Below, piece after piece: positions 21,545 through 46,202 of a stretch of DNA of 57,025 nucleotides. Where the stretch lies: sequence record MZ911962.1. One strand, written 5' to 3'. Every line of letters starts with the position of its first letter. Positions within the stretch are counted from its first letter, which is position 1. The notes under the pieces were generated by a model. It saw only the letters and a list, made by a program, of their open reading frames with translations, did not search any database and was not told the DNA's origin. The position numbers and the translations under genes are program-made. Origin of the DNA: Escherichia phage PLYYY01.

Positions 21545-22137
21545 TTTAATACCTCTTTAGACTGTTCAATTTCTAATGCACGCTGTGCGGATGCAATAAT
21601 GTCTTTCAAGTCTTCTACCAGACTTTTATGACCGCGTTCGCCTGGCTGCAACGCCTTTTTAATCAAATGTTGTAAAGCTGGGTTAGTTGTTTTCCAAGCT
21701 TCTAAGACATCATACACGTCCACGATGCATTTTACAACATTGCCGTTTTGATCTTTACCATAAATAATTTTCTGATATTTATTCATGGGAATTTTAGATG
21801 GTTCATATTTCGTAAAAACTGCGGTTTTATCAATTCTCCAGTCGGGCAAATTTGCTTCAATAGATTGTTTGACGTAATCATCTGCAACGATATATCGCCA
21901 GGCTATAATATCTTGAACTTTATAAGGGCTATTTTCATCCATAGCTGAACGCCCTTCTATAGCCCAATCCCATCCATGTAATAGATTCTTAACGTGTGTG
22001 CCGTTGCGCAAACGAACTTCAAACTTCTCATTACGAAGAAAAATAGGCATTCCTTTACCGTCGTGCTGGTGCCAAATTTTATTAAGATTATCTTTCATTT
22101 TACGCTCTCGCTGTACGTGAATGAACTTCGTAAACAA
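21541..22137 (-). CDS. hypothetical protein embedded in the deazaguanine cluster
   Basis: 198-aa ORF (alternative start at Met14, 22098) between queD and the transporter gene. No recognisable motif. Confidence 0.45.
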   Translation of the reverse strand: MFTKFIHVQRERKMKDNLNKIWHQHDGKGMPIFLRNEKFEVRLRNGTHVKNLLHGWDWAIEGRSAMDENSPYKVQDIIAWRYIVADDYVKQSIEANLPDWRIDKTAVFTKYEPSKIPMNKYQKIIYGKDQNGNVVKCIVDVYDVLEAWKTTNPALQHLIKKALQPGERGHKSLVEDLKDIIASAQRALEIEQSKEVLK

Positions 22138-22579
22138 CCCAAAGGATGGCAGATGCTGTGAACTTACTTAAGCTCATTGCTACCATTGATCCCGGATTAA
22201 CAATGCCTATAATACTTAAGAACACAATGGAATCAATTGGTACAGCTACCAAAGAGCTGATAAATACACGTTGATGAAACGGCTTCTTAGTAATCGTGTA
22301 TACCGCATAGTCCGCAAACTCGCTAAGAGCAAAGGATGCAACGGATGCAACTACAACAGCAGGATCCCCAAATACCCAGCTAAGGATGCAACCGACAATC
22401 ATTGCAGGGATGACGCCTTTGCCAGCGTTACGCTGTGCGTAATCACGCAGCACAAAGATAATACCTACAAAGAAAGCCATCATTGGGACTACACCGAGTG
22501 GTGTATTAAGCATCGGAAGGTAGGAAAAGCCCAGGTTTACGAATGTAATTGCAGCCAGATAAGCAACGATAAATTTCAT
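22100..22579 (-). CDS. YhhQ-like queuosine-precursor transporter (membrane protein)
   Basis: Start at the internal ATG 22579 preceded by GGAGA. Multi-pass hydrophobic protein in the que cluster. Confidence 0.55.
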   Translation of the reverse strand: MKFIVAYLAAITFVNLGFSYLPMLNTPLGVVPMMAFFVGIIFVLRDYAQRNAGKGVIPAMIVGCILSWVFGDPAVVVASVASFALSEFADYAVYTITKKPFHQRVFISSLVAVPIDSIVFLSIIGIVNPGSMVAMSLSKFTASAILWVVYEVHSRTARA

Positions 22580-22699
22580 ACTTTTGTTCTCCAGTTTTAA
22601 CAGCGTTATTCGCTGGTTGTTGGGTTTAAAAGCTTTAGTAGTATAGTTGGGTTCCCGCACCCTAAACAATGCGCTAGCGGTGCGGTTTTCGCGGTAAGA

Positions 22700-23407
22700 T
22701 CAAGCTTTGCTAATAAATTCGCTGTACCCTTTAGCACGCAGTTTGCACGCAGGACATTCACCGCAACCATATCCCCAGTCATGCAGAGTGCGGCGGACGC
22801 CATTATAGCAAGTATGGGACTGTTCAATTACTGTGGTTAAGAAGCCAACCTTATCAGCGAGTTCAAACGTTTCCGCTTTGTTTAAACGCATAAGCGGTGT
22901 AACAAAATGGATATCTGTTTCATATCCAACGTTTAATGTAGCTTCAAGCAGGTCTACAAACTGCTGGCGGCAATCCGGATAACCGCTATAGTCTGTTTCA
23001 CAAACGCCTGTAACCACATATCTGGCGCCAACTTTCTGCGCGTAGGCGTGCGCGGTAGTCAGGAAAAGCGCATTACGGTTTGGCACAAAGCTTGCCGGAA
23101 GGTTGTTGTGCTGTTCGTGATGTTCGTTAACATCACCTTCGTTCCCGATTAAAGCGCTATTGCCAATCTGTTTCAAAGCAGGTAATTCAAAGACAACAAA
23201 TGGGACATCGTGCTCTTTACAAATTTGATCAGCACAAGCCAGCTCAATGTTATGACGTTGACCGTATGCAAAACCAATAGCGTAGACCTTATCATAGTTA
23301 TTAAGTGCAAGACCTAAACAGGTCACGCTGTCCTGGCCGCCAGACAGGACCACAACGGCGGAGTTATGATTTTTTACAGGGAATACCAGTTTATCTAATT
23401 TATTCAT
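22700..23407 (-). CDS. queC: 7-cyano-7-deazaguanine synthase
   Basis: Start at internal ATG 23407. PP-loop motif VLSGGQDS and C-terminal Cys cluster CYNG...CGECPAC. No amidotransferase extension. Confidence 0.85.
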   Translation of the reverse strand: MNKLDKLVFPVKNHNSAVVVLSGGQDSVTCLGLALNNYDKVYAIGFAYGQRHNIELACADQICKEHDVPFVVFELPALKQIGNSALIGNEGDVNEHHEQHNNLPASFVPNRNALFLTTAHAYAQKVGARYVVTGVCETDYSGYPDCRQQFVDLLEATLNVGYETDIHFVTPLMRLNKAETFELADKVGFLTTVIEQSHTCYNGVRRTLHDWGYGCGECPACKLRAKGYSEFISKA

Positions 23408-23408
23408 T

Positions 23409-23597
23409 TTAGAAACCTTTAAGGCTAATATTAAGATTAACGACCACTTGTTCAACTACATCATCAGATGTCATCTGACGTTTATGAATTTCAAGCTCCG
23501 AATGTATGTTCTTGGATGCAGCACGACAGATGGCGTCATTCAGCTCGTCTTGTAAACGTTGCATCTTCTGCATAAGAATCACAGTCTCTTCATTCAT
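23409..23597 (-). CDS. hypothetical small protein (tandem paralog 1)
   Basis: 62-aa ORF; similar in pattern to the adjacent 23590-23802 product (LNDAICRAASKNIHSELEIH vs LNSAIAHATMQGVHVELDIN). Confidence 0.4.
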   Translation of the reverse strand: MNEETVILMQKMQRLQDELNDAICRAASKNIHSELEIHKRQMTSDDVVEQVVVNLNISLKGF

Positions 23598-23802
23598 CTT
23601 CTACACCTTTAATATCACAAGGATTGATTGTTACATTTGACATCACAATCGGATGATTGCGTGCTCCGATTGTACTAACGTGGTTAATATCTAATTCAAC
23701 ATGCACACCCTGCATAGTAGCGTGGGCAATTGCAGAATTAAGTTTTTCTACCAGCTCAGTGATCATTTCCTGATGCTGTTTCGCTTCTTCCAAAGTGATC
23801 AT
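23590..23802 (-). CDS. hypothetical small protein (tandem paralog 2)
   Basis: 70-aa ORF; see paralog relation to 23409-23597. Confidence 0.4.
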   Translation of the reverse strand: MITLEEAKQHQEMITELVEKLNSAIAHATMQGVHVELDINHVSTIGARNHPIVMSNVTINPCDIKGVEDE

Positions 23803-24057
23803 TTAAACCTCCGTTAATGTTTGAGTCCAGTCTAAGCCTTCAAGGTCTACATCAGCTATTTCATCGTACTCGTAAGCTCCCGGATCTGCTGGCAGCCATC
23901 TATCAAATCGATGGCTGAGTTCTGGAGGAATTGCTTCATACCCCCAAACCTTCCCATCCTTGTCGGCTGCCAGATAATCAACTCGACTTGGAACGGTTAA
24001 AGTGACACCACAAAAATTAACATCTTTAGTATGCACAACCTGACTTAATACACGCAT
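23803..24057 (-). CDS. hypothetical small protein (paralog of 45074-45376 product)
   Basis: 84-aa ORF sharing AADKDGKVWGYEA...VDLEGLDWTQTLTEV with AVDADGKVHCYDA...VDLEGMDWRDTLMEI. Confidence 0.45.
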   Translation of the reverse strand: MRVLSQVVHTKDVNFCGVTLTVPSRVDYLAADKDGKVWGYEAIPPELSHRFDRWLPADPGAYEYDEIADVDLEGLDWTQTLTEV

Positions 24058-24764
24058 TATTCCACCCCGATATATTTGTGAACCTGAAGCTGCAACGTGT
24101 ACCCGTGTTTCATACAGCTTTTGACAACCGCTTGGATGTTACTGTGGTTAAGATCTTCATCCTGCTCGTCCATTGGCTGCAAATATATCTTACCCTTGAA
24201 CCCCTTCGGAGGTCTAGCGATAAATGGCGTAGCTTGATGATCTAATGCTTGAAGCGGTAAACCGTCTTCCACGTTTACACAGCACGCTTTAAGCACATAT
24301 TTAAATGCATTTGCACGGTACAGCACAGAAGGATGAATTTTTGAAGTCTTAGGACTGCATACAATTACAGGTAACTGGGAAAAGTTCTTAGGTAAAGGCA
24401 TAGACCCGTTAGTTTCAATCTGTACAAGATACCCGCGCGATAACAGTTGTTCAATAAACGGGTTAATTTGCTGACGGAACGGTTCACCCCCAGTAATAAC
24501 CACAAGTGATGTGCTATTGCCTGATTCCAGCTTACGGCTTTCGATTAAACGCATGATATCAACAATGTGGTAAAGAGAACGACCAACAGTATAATCAGTA
24601 TCACAGCCCGGACATTGCAGGTTACACCCGGCAAGACGCACAAATACAGCAGGTTGACCGCAGAATGGACCTTCACCCTGAATGGTAGAGAATACCGAAT
24701 GCACGTCTAAATACATATCGTTTTCTTTAGAACGAGACTCGGGAGCTTGTTGATTAATATTCAT
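24057..24764 (-). CDS. queE: 7-carboxy-7-deazaguanine synthase (radical SAM)
   Basis: 235-aa ORF with radical-SAM Cys motif CNLQCPGC near the N-terminus, adjacent to queC. Confidence 0.8.
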   Translation of the reverse strand: MNINQQAPESRSKENDMYLDVHSVFSTIQGEGPFCGQPAVFVRLAGCNLQCPGCDTDYTVGRSLYHIVDIMRLIESRKLESGNSTSLVVITGGEPFRQQINPFIEQLLSRGYLVQIETNGSMPLPKNFSQLPVIVCSPKTSKIHPSVLYRANAFKYVLKACCVNVEDGLPLQALDHQATPFIARPPKGFKGKIYLQPMDEQDEDLNHSNIQAVVKSCMKHGYTLQLQVHKYIGVE

Positions 24765-24833
24765 CTTAAATCCTCTCGTGAAAAAGAAAGCGCCTCATTG
24801 GGCGCCTTCATTATAACGTGATATGTTTTGATA

Positions 24834-25646
24834 TTACAAGCCGTTCAGGGCTTCCGGTACTGGTACAGGTACGCGACCAGTCACACCATTAAATTTCTTC
24901 CAGCGTGCATACTGGGTTTTAACGGTATCTTCGTTCAGACCATGTCGACCAGCCAGGTTCAGAACATAAGAGATCGGAGCAGGCTGACCCAGCGTAGCGC
25001 TAATCTGGTCCATCAGAGCCCAGGCACGACCGCAGGAAGTTTCCGGTTGCGGACGGCGAACACCGTTCTGTTCAGGCATACGATTAGCTTCTTTTTCTTT
25101 CTCGCGGAGCTCTTTAGCGCGTGCTTTTTCCGCTTCTTTTTCTGCCTGTTTTGCAGCACGGATCTTGTCTTTGAAGCCTTTAATAGTAGCTTCCAGACCA
25201 TCCACCAGACCCTGGGCAGAAGTTACAGCACCGGACAGGTCTTCACCTTTAGACTTCTTAACGACAGCTTTCAGCTCTTTCAGAGCTTCTTTAATGGTCT
25301 TCAGGTTTGCAGATCCCTGAGTTTCTGCTTCCGTGATCTGTTCAACAGTGCTTTCGTCGGTGACGGTAGCCAAAGAGTTTTTCAGGATTTCAGCAGCGTT
25401 AGCAATCGCATTGAATTTGTTTTCCGCTTCAGTGCGGATTTCAGCTTGTTTCTTTTCAGCGGCAGCTTTTTTCTCTGCTTCTTTTTTCTCTTTTGCTACG
25501 CGTGCAGCTTCAGCGGCTGCGGCTTTCTTAGCTTCTGCATCATTCACAGTAGCTTCTTTCTTTGCAGGTTTAGCAGATTTTGCAGCGGCGGCAGCAGCGG
25601 CTGCGGCAGCAGCTTTTTTGTCTTCAATGTTGCTCATTCTCTTCAC
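24834..25646 (-). CDS. hypothetical Lys/Ala/Glu-rich protein with a C-terminal domain shared with the 41235-41909 product
   Basis: 270-aa ORF with a poly-Ala run and histone-H1-like AKK/EKK repeats. C-terminal segment ends YARWKKFNG. Confidence 0.5.
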   Translation of the reverse strand: MKRMSNIEDKKAAAAAAAAAAAKSAKPAKKEATVNDAEAKKAAAAEAARVAKEKKEAEKKAAAEKKQAEIRTEAENKFNAIANAAEILKNSLATVTDESTVEQITEAETQGSANLKTIKEALKELKAVVKKSKGEDLSGAVTSAQGLVDGLEATIKGFKDKIRAAKQAEKEAEKARAKELREKEKEANRMPEQNGVRRPQPETSCGRAWALMDQISATLGQPAPISYVLNLAGRHGLNEDTVKTQYARWKKFNGVTGRVPVPVPEALNGL

Positions 25647-25764
25647 TCCGAATTGTTATGGGTTCGTTTGTTACCAACGGGGTTAAATGTACCAAAGGAT
25701 TTTGTGACACGCAACCCCTTATCTGAATATTTTTAAAAATATTTTTGATCAAGCTTAGAACTTA

Positions 25765-26259
25765 CTAACTCTTCGCCCCTCGGCCGGGTGTCCATGCGGC
25801 TTGCAATGGGGGTTGCTCACAAACGACCCTGGCACCGGAAATAATACCACCCTCCCGTTCAGCATCGTATTTGACACGGGCAGGTTTCCAAAGTCCTTCA
25901 TCCATTGACGGAACGTATTGCCCAATTTGAGGTGAGCAAAAGCCTTGGATATCGTATTCCACACAGAATTCGGCTTGTGCGCTGATTTGGGCGTGATCCA
26001 GGATTGTTTCTGGAAGTTGTGTAAAGTAATCAAACAAAATGCGCTCAACGGTTTCCCGTTCATAAGGTGCAGCTCCTAAGTTTTCTGTCAAGTTAATATA
26101 AAGCATTTGAAGATCAACATCTTCAAGATCATGTAAATCGTCTACTGGTGCCACCAGTGTTGACTCAGGGCAACAAATAATTCCAAGTTGGTGTAGTGTC
26201 AGCCAATTGGGATGCTTTGCCAAGAGTTCAAATTTATCTGTATCAATCAGGACGTACAT
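25765..26259 (-). CDS. hypothetical protein
   Basis: 164-aa acidic ORF in the minus operon. Confidence 0.4.
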   Translation of the reverse strand: MYVLIDTDKFELLAKHPNWLTLHQLGIICCPESTLVAPVDDLHDLEDVDLQMLYINLTENLGAAPYERETVERILFDYFTQLPETILDHAQISAQAEFCVEYDIQGFCSPQIGQYVPSMDEGLWKPARVKYDAEREGGIISGARVVCEQPPLQAAWTPGRGAKS

Positions 26260-41234: not shown

Positions 41235-41909
41235 TTATGCGTCCAGGCCGTTGTATTTGCGCCAGGCGTAGAACTGAATGGCTACCGTTGTTCCGTTGTA
41301 AGAAGGCATTGCAGCTTTCATCTCTTTCAGCTCCGGCGTGCGGCCCAGCTCCTTCAGAAGCTTGTCACCCATTGCCCACACTTCGGCAGTTTTTCCTTTC
41401 AGCGGCTTGCGAGCGCCATTTTTGAAATCACAGCGAGCAGCTTTTGCATCCTGTTTTGGTGCGGCAGCTTTTGGCTCTTCAATTTTGATTTCAGAAACCT
41501 GCGTGGCAGCTTTTGCGTGTTTCATATCTTTCTCTTCCTCCTGCTCCAGAGCTTCGAGGCAGCTTTTGACAATTTCCGGATTTACCATCGGACGCAGTAC
41601 CGAGACGCTAGCAGCTGGCGCGGCGGTCGGTGCTGGGACTTTCTGCTCGGGCTTTTGCGCTTTTTCGTGATCGCGCAGAACCTGAAGGACTTCCTTTTCG
41701 ATGATGTAAAAACCGATATCGTCCTGATGGATTAACTGTTCGTGTGCGTCGCGTGCAACCTGGCCCCAGCGGGTCTTAAGAGCGCGGCGTGCATTCGTTT
41801 TCATGGTGTAGCGCATTTTGTCCTGTTCGCGGTGAGTTACTTTAGACATGGTATAGCTCCTTTCGTTAAAGTTAGTTTGCTTATTATTGCCTACCGTGAT
41901 AGTAGGCAA
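41235..41909 (-). CDS. hypothetical charged protein sharing a C-terminal domain with the 24834-25646 product
   Basis: Likely start at internal ATG 41849 (AAGGAG 7 nt upstream). Lys/Ala/Glu/Pro-rich middle. C-terminus ends FYAWRKYNGLDA, like YARWKKFNG in the other protein. Confidence 0.5.
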   Translation of the reverse strand: MPTITVGNNKQTNFNERSYTMSKVTHREQDKMRYTMKTNARRALKTRWGQVARDAHEQLIHQDDIGFYIIEKEVLQVLRDHEKAQKPEQKVPAPTAAPAASVSVLRPMVNPEIVKSCLEALEQEEEKDMKHAKAATQVSEIKIEEPKAAAPKQDAKAARCDFKNGARKPLKGKTAEVWAMGDKLLKELGRTPELKEMKAAMPSYNGTTVAIQFYAWRKYNGLDA

Positions 41910-43447: not shown

Positions 43448-43881
43448 GCTATAACGCACACAGCGCCACGCTAGCGAGCTAATGCACAAAGGTAATGGTA
43501 ATGCATTAGCTCGGGCGAAACAGGCGCACAGCGTCGCGCACAGCTCGCACAGCGCACACCGACCCACGCAGGCCCAGCCTCGCGACCCCACCCATCCTTT
43601 TCCAGGTACTTGGATCGCTGGGGCGTGCCCTATCCATCCTGATAGTAAGTCCACGCCTAAATCTCACCCATCACATAGCCTATCCACCTACATCCATGAC
43701 CCCACCTACCTTCTTTTTGAATATATTGCGCTCATCCTTTCTAAATATATGGATTTTGGTAGTAAATTCTAAGTCGTCAACGTATAATTCGTCTTGTAGC
43801 TACTCCATAGCTACCATCTTTAAGCGGATGCGACCAATTTCTATCAATTCTTACCAGTTTTAGAGCATCAAGGAGGTATTT
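43448..43881. promoter_or_regulatory. non-coding region with a long palindrome and GC-rich short repeats
   Basis: 11-bp perfect inverted repeat GAGCTAATGCA / TGCATTAGCTC at 43476-43512. Repeated CGCACAG units around 43520-43560. C-rich repeats (TATCCATCC, TATCCACCTACATCCATGACCCCACCTACC). Palindrome GTAGCTA-N5-TAGCTAC about 43797-43815. Confidence 0.4.
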
Positions 43882-44139
43882 ATGTGCGACTCCAGTGCAA
43901 GCACCACGACAAACTCCTCCAGCAATGTGGTTACAGAGGTAAATGCAATGCGATTAGGTCCATATCGCGGCTATTATGGTCGTGCTGCATGGAATGACGC
44001 TACTCAACGTTTTGAAGGCTGGATTATCTGCCCGGAACGTGTTAAATTTCACTCCGTAAAAGAGAAAAATATCGTTCTTAATTTTCAAAAATGTGTCACT
44101 AAATATGTAGAGGAGCAAGAAGAATGTCTTATCAATTAG
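43882..44139 (+). CDS. hypothetical early protein
   Basis: 85-aa ORF with AAGGAGG before the ATG. Confidence 0.45.
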   Translation: MCDSSASTTTNSSSNVVTEVNAMRLGPYRGYYGRAAWNDATQRFEGWIICPERVKFHSVKEKNIVLNFQKCVTKYVEEQEECLIN

Positions 44140-44480
44140 CATTAGAAGCTGCTGGATGCGAAGTATTAGATTTTGTTGAGTTTGGTTGTTATCAGGGTGA
44201 ATGGCTTGCCCTGATAAGAAAAGATGGTGTATTGGGGGTTTGTGAAGGTTCTTATGGATCGTGCTCGGGTTGTGATTCATTTGAAGCTGAATTTGGCTGG
44301 CATAATGAGGAAAGTCCCGATTATCAGAAACGTCTTGCTGAATTTGGTGAAAGTTACTTACCAGCTAACAGCTTTGAAGAAATGATCGCCAAACTTCAAA
44401 AGGATGTTGAGAATTATGATTGGGATGACGATTATAAATCTATGTTAGAAACTGTTCGTCAATGGCAGAAAAATATATAA
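44124..44480 (+). CDS. hypothetical protein with Cys cluster
   Basis: 118-aa ORF; CxxC-like pairs (GCYQ, CSGCDS). Confidence 0.4.
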   Translation: MSYQLALEAAGCEVLDFVEFGCYQGEWLALIRKDGVLGVCEGSYGSCSGCDSFEAEFGWHNEESPDYQKRLAEFGESYLPANSFEEMIAKLQKDVENYDWDDDYKSMLETVRQWQKNI

Positions 44481-44743
44481 AGGAAAGAAGAATGCGTGTA
44501 GGGGATGGTGAAAAGGTTGTTAACTATTTCGGGACTCAGGTTATAGTACCTGCTTGGGTAAATTGGCTCGCGGTTGATAAATGTGAAGAGCTCTATGCTT
44601 ACGAAAACGAGCCTTATGTAGATAAATCTGATGATTGCGACCGTTGGTATGAGGATACGGGTGAATCCATCTTTATTGGCGAGTTTCCTTTCGAAGAAGG
44701 TCGTTGGGTAAATTCTTTAGTTAATGTTAGTTCGGAGGCTTAA
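44462..44743 (+). CDS. hypothetical protein (member of small paralog family)
   Basis: 93-aa ORF; PAWVNWLAVDKCEELYAYENEP resembles the PWANFIAVDADGKVHCYDAKP motif of the 45074 product. Confidence 0.4.
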   Translation: MAEKYIKERRMRVGDGEKVVNYFGTQVIVPAWVNWLAVDKCEELYAYENEPYVDKSDDCDRWYEDTGESIFIGEFPFEEGRWVNSLVNVSSEA

Positions 44744-45022
44744 ATGCGTGTAGAAGAGATTGTTGAAGGTAAAGAGTATCGTTTACTGACCGATATTGGC
44801 GGTGTTGGGTATACTCCGGGCGATGGTGTTGAGTTCCGGGAACTGAAAGCTGGTTCTATTGTCACTGTTAATAAGGTGGTGTTTGATCTGCATAGCCTTT
44901 TCGGGCAGTGGAACCATACTGTAATTGTTAGCCAGGGTAGCGATGAATACGATGAAGAAGAGGATGCTTACGAAATTAGTTATACTGGTCTTGTAGGCGC
45001 CAATTTCCTGGAAGAAGTATAA
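44744..45022 (+). CDS. hypothetical protein
   Basis: 92-aa acidic ORF. Confidence 0.4.
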   Translation: MRVEEIVEGKEYRLLTDIGGVGYTPGDGVEFRELKAGSIVTVNKVVFDLHSLFGQWNHTVIVSQGSDEYDEEEDAYEISYTGLVGANFLEEV

Positions 45023-45073
45023 TTATCAATCTATAATGGGCTCTACGGAGCCCTTAATTATCTGGAGGTTGTT

Positions 45074-45376
45074 ATGCTTTATTTAGGAATGGATGAAACT
45101 GGACACGAAATTCCTTCTGTTAACAAGGAGACGCAAGTATTTACCGACTATTATGGGTTTGCTGTCCCTGTTGAGCCCTGGGCTAACTTTATCGCTGTAG
45201 ACGCAGACGGTAAAGTACATTGTTATGACGCTAAACCTTCTTGCTATGAATCTGGTAAGCAATGGATGCTTAGCGTATACGGTTTGCATGTGCGCTACTG
45301 CGGTGAAGTTGACCTTGAAGGTATGGACTGGCGCGATACTCTAATGGAAATTAAAGAATATAGGCTTAACCCATGA
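45074..45376 (+). CDS. hypothetical protein (paralog of 23803-24057 product)
   Basis: 100-aa ORF; shared C-terminal motif VDLEGMDWRDTLMEI. Confidence 0.45.
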   Translation: MLYLGMDETGHEIPSVNKETQVFTDYYGFAVPVEPWANFIAVDADGKVHCYDAKPSCYESGKQWMLSVYGLHVRYCGEVDLEGMDWRDTLMEIKEYRLNP

Positions 45377-45597
45377 AAATATTCATGATATTAGGTGCTA
45401 TAATTGCCGCTTTCGTTGTATTTGCAATTGTAGACTCTAAAGAAATGGAGCGGCAAAACTGCCAACGTACTGGTAACAGCCGGGAGGATATTATTTGGCA
45501 ATATATTTACGATGCAAAAGGTAATGTTGTGTCGACATATCCTCAGGTTATTACCGAGTATGAATATAAATGCAATGACCGTAACAGGTGGAGATAA
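45373..45597 (+). CDS. hypothetical membrane-anchored protein
   Basis: 74-aa ORF with N-terminal hydrophobic segment IFMILGAIIAAFVVFAIV. Confidence 0.4.
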   Translation: MKIFMILGAIIAAFVVFAIVDSKEMERQNCQRTGNSREDIIWQYIYDAKGNVVSTYPQVITEYEYKCNDRNRWR

Positions 45598-45869
45598 TAA
45601 TGGAAGTTACTGAAGCTGCTAAACGCATGGTGAAATTCTATGTTGGTTCTGATTCACCTTTAATTCGCGCTTTTGGTCAGGAGCTTTATGTTTTCCAGGG
45701 TGATCGAGAGGAGGCTGAAGAGGTCGCTCAGAAGATTCTTGATTTACAAGAAAAAGCTAAACGGGCGGATGCCCTGGAAGCTGTAGCAAAGGACTTCCTG
45801 CGTCGTAATAAATATGGTCCTTTGTTCTATCGTGATTTGTATAACCGTTTTAAGGAGATTGTGAAATGA
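45588..45869 (+). CDS. hypothetical protein
   Basis: 93-aa ORF. Confidence 0.4.
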   Translation: MEIIMEVTEAAKRMVKFYVGSDSPLIRAFGQELYVFQGDREEAEEVAQKILDLQEKAKRADALEAVAKDFLRRNKYGPLFYRDLYNRFKEIVK

Positions 45870-46135
45870 TTACTGCTCAAGAAGCTCGTGAATTAAGTGA
45901 TAAGCTGGATATTAGTGAAGATATTGCAGTCATTAGTGATAGTATTCGCGCAGCTGCTACAAAGGGATACAATAAAGTATTACTGGTAACTAAATACGGA
46001 GCTGTTGGTAATCCTGACACTCAAGACCCGACCACTATGAAGATTGCTAAATGGTTAGCTGATTCTGGTTTTACTGTCCTATACTATCCTTCAATGGACC
46101 AACGGGATAACGAGCGTACTGAGGTGGCCTGGTGA
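45866..46135 (+). CDS. hypothetical protein
   Basis: 89-aa ORF overlapping the upstream stop. Confidence 0.4.
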   Translation: MITAQEARELSDKLDISEDIAVISDSIRAAATKGYNKVLLVTKYGAVGNPDTQDPTTMKIAKWLADSGFTVLYYPSMDQRDNERTEVAW

Positions 46136-46202
46136 TTGAAGAAAATATCAAATATTGGAAAGGTTTTATTGACGAAATGCTGAAACCATTGGAGAAGAAA
46201 TA

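What the first reader, a model, noticed from the sequence alone, without database searches (positions are those of the whole stretch)
23409..24057. Small-protein paralog families scattered across both operons
Seen directly: the products of 23803-24057 and 45074-45376 share (A/V)D(K/A)DGKV..Y(E/D)A...VDLEG(L/M)DW..TL.E(V/I), and the product of 44462-44743 has a related PxWxNxxAVD core. The adjacent products of 23409-23597 and 23590-23802 resemble each other. Inference: duplicated accessory genes, one copy embedded in the deazaguanine cluster.
Basis: partly seen in the sequence, partly recalled or inferred. Interest (0 to 1): 0.35.

Follow-up and report, generated by a model that had tools for sequence, protein, structure and literature searches.

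The report
Small phage accessory protein paralogs
Three small genes of this E. coli phage (a Seuratvirus) are real but ancient copies of a widespread, uncharacterised phage protein module, and the copy inside the DNA-modification gene cluster is an optional swap-in cassette, not a demonstrated part of that pathway.

Summary
The window is a complete Seuratvirus genome (Queuovirinae, dPreQ0-modifying E. coli siphophage). Proteins A (23803-24057, -), B (45074-45376, +) and C (44462-44743, +) are significantly similar to each other. All three match the function-unknown family phrog_1972, and there is no fourth copy. They are ancient paralogs, because each has its own ortholog series. The family is large (1029 clusters at 50% identity) and appears phage-restricted as far as sampled. 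It has no Pfam or NCBIfam model. A confident AlphaFold model shows a seven-strand all-beta domain with no relative in the PDB. The module occurs singly, or as 2-9 tandem repeats in one protein. It is sometimes fused to nucleotide-pool enzymes (MazG-like, dCMP deaminase, dATP/dGTP diphosphohydrolase N-domain). Gene A sits in a hypervariable slot just after queE. Related phages carry this allele, an allele about 48% identical, or nothing. CAjan lacks A yet makes dPreQ0 DNA. D (23409-23597) and E (23590-23802) are distant tandem homologs, shown by a profile search (E = 3.6e-5). The E model is a helix plus a beta-hairpin. All five genes are under purifying selection. Function is unknown. My best guess is a non-enzymatic binding module. 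The finding is solid but ordinary.

The parts
23803..24057 (-). Gene A, 84 aa. A phrog_1972-type all-beta module sitting in the variable cassette slot immediately downstream of queE.
   Evidence: ORF. phrog_1972 E = 4.8e-23. AlphaFold pLDDT 92.9 with 7 strands. Start overlaps the queE stop as TAATG, and its stop abuts the ATG of E. Presence, absence and allele replacement in relatives. pN/pS 0.05.
45074..45376 (+). Gene B, 100 aa. Second paralog, in the + strand array of small early genes.
   Evidence: ORF. phrog_1972 E = 4.2e-28. BLASTP to A E = 5e-10. GGAGG Shine-Dalgarno 6 nt upstream. Relatives in 128 phage records. pN/pS 0.18.
44462..44743 (+). Gene C. Third paralog, 93 aa as the longest ORF, more likely 83 aa starting at 44492.
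   Evidence: ORF. phrog_1972 E = 1.2e-15. BLASTP to A E = 8e-8. AAGGA Shine-Dalgarno lies before the ATG at 44492 and after the upstream stop at 44478-44480. Homologs are 83 aa. pN/pS 0.33.
23590..23802 (-). Gene E, 70 aa. Small protein modelled as a helix plus a beta-hairpin (phrog_26258). The most conserved occupant of the queE-queC gap.
   Evidence: ORF. phrog_26258 E = 2.7e-51. Orthologs in 39 phage records, including Hafnia phage yong3 and non-deazaguanine Nonanavirus phages. AlphaFold model: helix 4-30, strands 34-47 and 50-62, pLDDT 77. pN/pS 0.04-0.12.
23409..23597 (-). Gene D, 62 aa. A divergent tandem homolog of E (phrog_24420), found only in the E. coli-type Seuratvirus group.
   Evidence: ORF. 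phrog_24420 E = 5.5e-45. The E-family HMM finds D at E = 3.6e-5. Overlaps E by 8 nt (ATGAATGA). Present in 28 records, all close Seuratvirus relatives. pN/pS 0.08-0.15.
24057..24764 (-). queE (7-carboxy-7-deazaguanine synthase). Context: the upstream neighbour of A.
   Evidence: ORF. Annotated as QueE in WildeMaa, CAjan, Greed and GottfriedDienst.
22700..23407 (-). queC (preQ0 synthase). Context: the downstream neighbour of D. The ATG at 23407 follows the D stop after 1 nt.
   Evidence: The listed ORF extends to a TTG at 23455, but homologs are 235 aa starting MNKLDKL.
24786..24809 (-). Terminator-like GC-rich hairpin with a T-run, just upstream of queE, next to a promoter-like site at 24839-24810. 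A possible boundary of the queE-A-E-D-queC transcription unit.
   Evidence: Consensus scan only. Not evidence of function.

Best explanation
A, B and C are three anciently diverged stand-alone copies of a phage module of about 75 residues with seven beta strands (phrog_1972 and sister PHROGs). The module has no catalytic signature. I propose that it works as a non-enzymatic binding unit, and that each paralog recognises a different partner. This is inference. B and C are expressed with the other small early genes on the + strand. A is a swappable cassette inserted at the stop/start junction between queE and gene E. It is co-translated with the preQ0 enzymes but is not needed to make dPreQ0 DNA. 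D and E are a separate family of small proteins, modelled as a helix plus a beta-hairpin, that arose by an old tandem duplication. Shown here: the paralogy, the fold prediction, the family's size and repeat architecture, the cassette polymorphism, the purifying selection, and the absence of A from a phage with modified DNA. Inferred: that the module acts by binding, and what it binds.
Against: No binding partner or phenotype is known, and no experiment exists for any member. A family member sits directly after queE in two genera, Seuratvirus and Nonagvirus-like phages. Three fusions join the module to nucleotide-pool enzymes. Together these hint at a more specific link to nucleotide metabolism than a generic accessory binder would have. 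The conserved Trp and Glu could line a ligand site rather than the core, and I could not inspect the coordinates. D and E are present in CAjan, so a role for them in the pathway is not excluded.
Confidence: 0.55

Rival explanations
1. The module is a dedicated adaptor, regulator or ligand-binding unit of nucleotide metabolism. It would tether or modulate nucleotide-pool enzymes. A would act on QueE or the preQ0 pathway, and the repeat arrays would scaffold MazG-like or deaminase domains.
For: There are three independent fusions. P0080 has 5 repeats plus a MazG-like pyrophosphatase. P0085 has 6 repeats plus a dCMP deaminase. P0139 has a dATP/dGTP diphosphohydrolase N-domain plus 3 repeats. The last two lie on phage-like contigs. 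A family member directly follows queE in Seuratvirus, in Nonagvirus, and in a metagenomic Gat-QueC phage, and it is translationally coupled to queE. Sampled members sit next to DNA polymerase A, ResIII helicases and an NMN transporter.
Against: A is absent from CAjan, which modifies its DNA normally, and from several BASEL Seuratviruses. B and C, and the members in 9g, ECML-117 and vB_Kp3, lie among small early genes with no enzyme nearby. A protein 64% identical to A sits at the early-region position in another phage. Only 3 of 43 multi-domain members have an identifiable enzyme domain. Small ORFs pepper the replication modules of most phages, so neighbourhood evidence alone is weak.
Confidence: 0.2
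2. A, B and C are anti-defence or host-takeover inhibitors, and the diversifying alleles track host immune proteins.
For: B and C are in the mosaic early region, where only 61-82% of the region aligns to relatives, in 3-5 pieces. Gene A shows allele replacement and presence/absence while its flanks are nearly identical. There are several paralogs per genome. The proteins are small and have no enzymatic motif.
Against: There is no match to any characterised anti-defence protein in the libraries available, and no phenotype data. Within an allele the gene is under strong purifying selection, with pN/pS 0.05. Long tandem-repeat and enzyme-fused forms are unusual for inhibitors.
Confidence: 0.2
3. 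The similarities are chance matches between short ORFs, or the ORFs are not genes.
For: The D-E pairwise match covers only 26 residues.
Against: The evidence is. Orthologs exist in dozens of phages. Purifying selection acts on all five genes.
Confidence: 0.01
4. D and/or E are unrecognised auxiliary subunits of the phage QueE/QueC step.
For: E lies between queE and queC in all 34+ Seuratvirus records, including the divergent Hafnia phage yong3 and STP-SP5. It is tightly coupled to its neighbours. Its constraint is as strong as that on QueE.
Confidence: 0.1

Closest known systems
PHROG family phrog_1972 (function unknown), with sister PHROGs 11307, 21375, 23941, 26007, 15048 and 15430
   Same: A, B and C all match it over the full domain, with E = 1e-15 to 4e-28. 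The multi-repeat relatives match the same set of PHROGs.
   Different: The PHROG entry has no function, no structure and no literature. The paralogy within Seuratvirus, the cassette behaviour at queE, the tandem-repeat architecture and the enzyme fusions are not recorded there.
Genes of unknown function in the CAjan 7-deazaguanine cluster (twelve genes, six with assigned function; PMC7544227)
   Same: D and E correspond to CAjan gp43 and gp44, which lie between queC (gp42) and queE (gp45).
   Different: CAjan has no gene A at this site. The window, like WildeMaa and Seurat, carries the extra 255-bp cassette.
MucBP repeat (PF06458) of Gram-positive surface adhesins
   Same: The N-terminal half of the module, with the pattern xVxYFGxxhxVPxWVxYhAVDxDGxV, aligns with repeats of an LPXTG/MucBP protein, P0119.
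   Different: Only profile positions 8-49 align. The Pfam MucBP model does not hit A, B or C even at E <= 1. The C-terminal W...VDLEGxDW..TL half is absent from P0119. This is a motif-level resemblance, not membership.
GnsA/GnsB small proteins of E. coli (PDB 4xo2)
   Same: It is the best structural match to the E model, with 58 of 59 residues aligned. Both are a helix followed by a beta-hairpin.

Membership tests
phrog_1972-type phage beta-module family | Significant full-length match to the family profile | tested here: met
   A 4.8e-23, B 4.2e-28, C 1.2e-15. The exhaustive HMM search returns 1029 related clusters.
phrog_1972-type phage beta-module family | Shared fold with other members | tested here: met
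   The model of A (pLDDT 92.9) superposes on BFVD models of uncharacterised phage proteins with TM 0.7-0.86 and E down to 1.8e-7.
7-deazaguanine (preQ0/dPreQ0) pathway components (FolE, QueD, QueE, QueC, DpdA, YhhQ) | Homology to a known pathway enzyme or transporter | tested here: not met
   No Pfam or NCBIfam hit for A, D or E.
7-deazaguanine (preQ0/dPreQ0) pathway components (FolE, QueD, QueE, QueC, DpdA, YhhQ) | Present in every phage that makes the modification with this cluster | tested here: not met
   A is absent from CAjan, whose DNA carries dPreQ0 (PMC6884629), and from GottfriedDienst. D is absent from yong3 and STP-SP5. E is absent from the Gat-QueC locus L007.
7-deazaguanine (preQ0/dPreQ0) pathway components (FolE, QueD, QueE, QueC, DpdA, YhhQ) | Loss of the gene changes the modification level | not testable with these tools
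   This needs knock-outs and LC-MS/MS.
Radical SAM proteins (the label carried by gene E in RefSeq and pharokka-style annotations, via phrog_26258) | CxxxCxxC cluster motif and a PF04055 match | tested here: not met
   E is 70 aa with a single Cys. It has no Pfam hit at E <= 1. The label looks like an annotation carry-over from the neighbouring QueE.
MucBP domain (PF06458) | Match to the Pfam model over the whole domain | tested here: not met
   No hit at E <= 1. Only a half-domain motif similarity to P0119.
GnsA/GnsB family (considered for E) | Significant structural or sequence similarity | tested here: inconclusive
Known anti-phage defence proteins (PADLOC) | Match to a defence-system model | tested here: not met
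   No hit for A-E at E <= 0.1.
Characterised anti-defence proteins (Acr, Ocr/ArdA-like, etc.) | Homology to, or demonstrated inhibition of, a defence system | not tested
   No anti-defence library is among the tools. The PHROG hits carry no such annotation.

The most novel reading that the evidence does not exclude
The beta-module of about 75 aa could be a previously unrecognised, very large phage domain family (more than 1000 clusters at 50% identity, no Pfam model, no relative in the PDB). Its job would be to bind and organise or regulate nucleotide-pool and DNA-precursor enzymes. In Queuovirinae, the copy coupled to queE would then tune 7-deazaguanine precursor synthesis or its channelling to DpdA, with the alternative alleles giving different modification levels or specificities.
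Probability: 0.12. Interest if true: 0.6.

Novelty: new member of a known kind. Interest (0 to 1): 0.3.

Why it matters
The finding gives concrete handles on three of the six unassigned genes that sit inside the model deazaguanine cluster of Seuratvirus phages. A is an optional, exchangeable cassette and can be set aside when the pathway is reconstituted. D and E are conserved, constrained and still unexplained. It also flags a large, structurally unmatched phage domain family that deserves a Pfam entry and a solved structure. This family forms repeat arrays and is occasionally fused to MazG-like, dCMP deaminase or dNTP diphosphohydrolase domains. For phage engineering, the queE-E junction is a naturally tolerated insertion site. 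None of this is surprising to a phage genomicist, because small paralogous accessory genes in mosaic regions are the norm.

Tried and rejected
- **Family libraries.** Pfam, NCBIfam and PADLOC scans of A-E found nothing.
- **PDB by sequence.** A search with the family profile gave only E >= 0.6 noise.
- **AFDB50 fold search.** The library was not available.
- **Structure prediction of E with a diverse alignment.** The shallow alignment gave only pLDDT 77.
- **The search for homologous proteins with E.** It returned only relatives at least 91% identical.
- **Scan of bacterial and archaeal genomes for A-type genes.** No relatives were found, but the search patterns were narrow, so this is weak evidence of absence.
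- **IMG/VR scan.** It gave only 9 loci, too few for neighbourhood statistics.
- **Literature.** Searches on the Seuratvirus and CAjan cluster, Queuovirinae early genes and phrog_1972 found only the statement that these genes are of unknown function.
- **Recent duplication within this genome.** Rejected, because each paralog has much closer orthologs elsewhere.
- **A fourth copy or a pseudogene copy.** Rejected.
- **The MucBP adhesin hit as membership.** Rejected, because it is a half-domain motif only.
- **The 174-aa protein P0013 as a real fusion.** Rejected. Its C-terminal tail is unrelated low-quality sequence after a C-type domain and is probably a frameshifted contig.

Full report
**What the window is.** Megablast of 22000-26000 and of 43800-46200 finds 33-34 phage records, nearly all Escherichia Seuratvirus (Queuovirinae). 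These include KS_W4, WildeMaa, Seurat, slur01, CAjan and Greed, at 90-97% identity. The window length of 57,025 bp matches whole genomes of this genus. The minus-strand block around the finding reads helicase ... queE - A - E - D - queC - yhhQ - ... - queD - folE - ... - dpdA - polymerase. The plus-strand block at 43.9-46.6 kb is an array of small, mostly overlapping or abutting ORFs, typical of early genes.

**Checking the observation.** I name the five ORFs as follows:
- A = 23803-24057 (-), 84 aa
- B = 45074-45376 (+), 100 aa
- C = 44462-44743 (+), 93 aa
- D = 23409-23597 (-), 62 aa
- E = 23590-23802 (-), 70 aa

BLASTP gives A-B E = 5e-10, A-C 8e-8 and B-C 7e-6, each alignment spanning nearly the whole domain. 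Against a database of all 461 ORFs of 35 aa or more in the window, the three retrieve only each other (2e-7, 3e-5, 2e-3). Independently, all three match phrog_1972. A family HMM finds exactly three copies in the ORF set and in the six-frame translation. The D-E pairwise match is short (26 aa; E = 0.04 against the ORF set). However, an HMM built from five diverse E-type proteins (window, STP-SP5, yong3, AVIO78A, Kpn BU9) that did not include D finds D at E = 3.6e-5 over 46 of 66 positions, with the next ORF at 0.7. Both parts of the observation are therefore real.

**These are genes.** All five have orthologs in dozens of deposited phages. Nei-Gojobori counts against relatives show purifying selection:

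| Gene | pN/pS |
|---|---|
| D | 0.08-0.15 |
| E | 0.04-0.12 |
| A | 0.05 |
| B | 0.18 |
| C | 0.33 |
| QueE | 0.04-0.05 |

. The junctions indicate translational coupling:
- The queE stop and the A start overlap as TAATG.
- The A stop TAA is followed directly by the ATG of E, with GGAGG upstream.
- E and D overlap by 8 nt (ATGAATGA).
- The D stop is 1 nt from the queC ATG at 23407.

C probably starts at 44492, giving 83 aa. That ATG follows the upstream stop (44478-44480) and an AAGGA Shine-Dalgarno, and database homologs and the RCIP0359 annotation are 83 aa.

**What the A/B/C family is.** A word-indexed search with A alone found only 10 close relatives. A profile of A, B, C and seven relatives found 79. 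An exhaustive HMMER search of 1.84 billion representatives found 1029 clusters at E <= 1e-3 and 125 at <= 1e-10.

The nearly invariant positions are Gly17, Pro45, Trp54, Glu73 and Trp77. That pattern looks structural rather than catalytic.

**Architecture across the family.** Of the 214 retrieved sequences, 171 are single domains of about 80 aa and 43 contain 2-9 tandem copies in one polypeptide (sequences). Three proteins add an identifiable enzyme:
- P0080 has 5 repeats plus a MazG-like pyrophosphatase.
- P0085 has 6 repeats plus a dCMP/cytidine deaminase.
- P0139 has the N-domain of a dATP/dGTP diphosphohydrolase plus 3 repeats.

P0085 and P0139 lie on phage-like contigs. One bacterial LPXTG/MucBP adhesin (P0119) matches only the N-terminal half-motif, and I do not count it as a member.

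**Old paralogs, not a recent duplication.** Each of A, B and C heads its own series of orthologs from 99% down to about 40% identity. The same proteins are only 20-38% identical to the other two window paralogs.

tblastn finds B-type genes in 128 phage records: Seuratvirus, Nonagvirus, Wifcevirus myophages, Klebsiella T1-like phages and Salmonella SP069-like phages. A-type genes are in 64 records, including jumbo phages of Erwinia, Serratia, Yersinia, Pectobacterium and Xanthomonas.

In 9g, ECML-117 and vB_Kp3 the member sits in a run of small hypothetical early genes. Five further sampled members sit beside DNA polymerase A, ResIII helicases (twice), an NMN transporter, and a YafQ-like/HNH pair.

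**The copy in the deazaguanine cluster is a cassette.** The position immediately after queE has three states in Queuovirinae:
1. **Allele 1**, at least 97% identical to A, in 13 records: KS_W4, KS_A8, OddieOddie, WildeMaa, Seurat, slur01, SLUR75/76/26, KS_A3 and KS_S4.
2. **A second allele**, 47.6% identical and 99 aa, in ECP2304, SLUR25/63, RCIP0359, phiG7, CSP1/CSP1C and Greed. Related copies 46-54% identical sit after queE in STP-SP5 and in the Nonagviruses ChristophMerian, FritzHoffmann and PD328. A metagenomic Gat-QueC phage also has one there.
3. **Nothing.** GottfriedDienst and CAjan were read directly and lack the gene. SeppeHuegi, VogelGryff, KurtStettler, Skure, SHIN8, Dru_SM1 and others are inferred to lack it, because E abuts QueE in their records.

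A three-way DNA alignment shows identity to Greed collapsing to about 56% only across gene A, while queE and E stay at 86-99%. It also shows a clean 255-bp absence in GottfriedDienst, with the junction at the TAATG stop/start overlap.

Conversely, a protein 64% identical to A occupies the early-region position of B in another Seuratvirus-like contig. So the family moves between the two sites.

CAjan lacks A, yet about 32% of its G is dPreQ0, and this depends on dpdA (PMC6884629). The CAjan cluster has been described as twelve genes, six of them of unknown function (PMC7544227). By this natural experiment, A is dispensable for the modification.

**D and E.** E is the constant occupant of the queE-queC gap. 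It is the only gene there in Hafnia phage yong3 and is accompanied by an A-type gene in STP-SP5. E-type proteins also occur in Nonanavirus/Sashavirus and Klebsiella phages that have no que genes, just upstream of an RdgC-like exonuclease. D is confined to 28 close Seuratvirus records. It is best read as an old tandem duplicate of E that has diverged beyond easy pairwise detection.

The 'radical SAM domain-containing protein' label on E in several RefSeq records, and on phrog_26258, has no support. E is 70 aa with one Cys and no Pfam hit.

**How it most likely works.** Shown:
- a compact beta module that is confidently predicted and non-catalytic in appearance
- use as single copies, as multiple paralogs per genome, as long repeat arrays, and fused to enzymes
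- location in early or replication regions
- cassette-like turnover at one site, combined with strong purifying selection within an allele

Inferred: it is a binding module whose paralogs have different partners. I put 0.55 on the composite reading, namely an accessory, non-enzymatic binder, with the cluster copy not part of the pathway.

Two more specific versions remain open at about 0.2 each. One is an adaptor or regulator of nucleotide-pool enzymes, supported by the three fusions and by the recurrent position after queE in two genera. The other is a host-takeover or anti-defence inhibitor, supported by the early mosaic context and the allele turnover. I could not discriminate between them with the tools at hand.

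**Novelty and verdict.** The genes are annotated as hypothetical in every record, and the family exists as a function-unknown PHROG. I found no paper that discusses it. The finding is a correct and well-supported observation of ordinary phage biology: ancient paralogous accessory genes in mosaic regions. Two by-products are modestly useful. One is a large domain family that has no Pfam model and no structural relative and is worth curating. The other is the clear demonstration that gene A in the deazaguanine cluster is an exchangeable cassette. Interest is 0.3.

Noticed in passing
window 23590-23802 (-): Gene E carries the label 'radical SAM domain-containing protein' in RefSeq records of CAjan, Seurat and slur01, in KS_* records, and in phrog_26258. 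It is 70 aa with a single Cys and no Pfam match. The label looks like an annotation spill-over from the adjacent QueE.
   Followed up: yes
window 44462-44743 (+): The longest ORF for C (93 aa, ATG 44462) overlaps the upstream gene by 19 nt. A second ATG at 44492 follows the upstream stop and an AAGGA Shine-Dalgarno and gives the 83-aa form seen in the databases. It is the likely true start.
   Followed up: yes
window 24834-25646 (-) and 41235-41909 (-): This is the only other paralog pair in the genome-wide all-against-all BLAST. The C-terminal regions of about 70 aa of these two proteins are 29% identical (E = 6e-4). The first is an Ala/Lys/Glu-rich low-complexity protein annotated variously as 'plectin 1', 'FtrA domain protein' or 'outer capsid protein' in relatives.
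   Followed up: no
window 24786-24839 (-): A strong terminator-like hairpin (9 pairs, then a T-run) at 24809-24786 lies next to a 10/12 sigma-70-like promoter match at 24839-24810. Both sit in the 70-nt gap upstream of queE, so this may be the start of the queE-A-E-D-queC unit.
   Followed up: no
window 45038-45053 (+): A GC-rich hairpin (GGGCTC-TACG-GAGCCC) sits in the 51-nt gap between 44744-45022 and gene B. It has no proper T-run and its role is unknown.
   Followed up: no
window 43882-44139 (+): An early protein of 85 aa (phrog_24875) has a weak match to a HicB-like antitoxin PHROG (phrog_9151, E = 0.005). The CSP1C record lists 'antitoxin HicB', 'RNA-binding protein Hfq', 'ATPase' and 'ATP-binding protein' among its annotations in this early region; I did not map them to specific genes. 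None was verified here.
   Followed up: no
window 43800-46200 (+): The early region is highly mosaic among Seuratviruses. Only 61-82% of it aligns to any relative, in 3-5 pieces. By contrast, the queE-queC region aligns over 93-100% of its length.
   Followed up: partly
L008 5001-5258 (metagenomic Seuratvirus-like contig, 62 kb): A protein 64% identical to A sits at the early-region position that B occupies in the window. It shares the conserved N-terminus MRVLSQVVHTK with A. This implies exchange of family members between the early operon and the queE slot.
   Followed up: partly
L016 1758-2057 (phage Greed) and P0011: The alternative allele at the queE slot is 99 aa. Its C-terminal tail of about 15 aa overlaps the start of gene E by 47 nt, whereas allele 1 abuts E exactly.
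   Followed up: partly
P0119 (1664-aa LPXTG/YSIRK/MucBP surface protein): The N-terminal half of the phage module (VxYFG..h.VP.WV.YhAVD.DG.V) matches eight MucBP-region repeats of a Gram-positive adhesin. This is either a shared beta-hairpin motif or very remote ancestry.
   Followed up: partly
window 22700-23455 (-): The mechanical ORF for queC extends to a TTG at 23455 and would overlap gene D by 47 nt. Homologs start at the ATG at 23407 (235 aa).
   Followed up: yes
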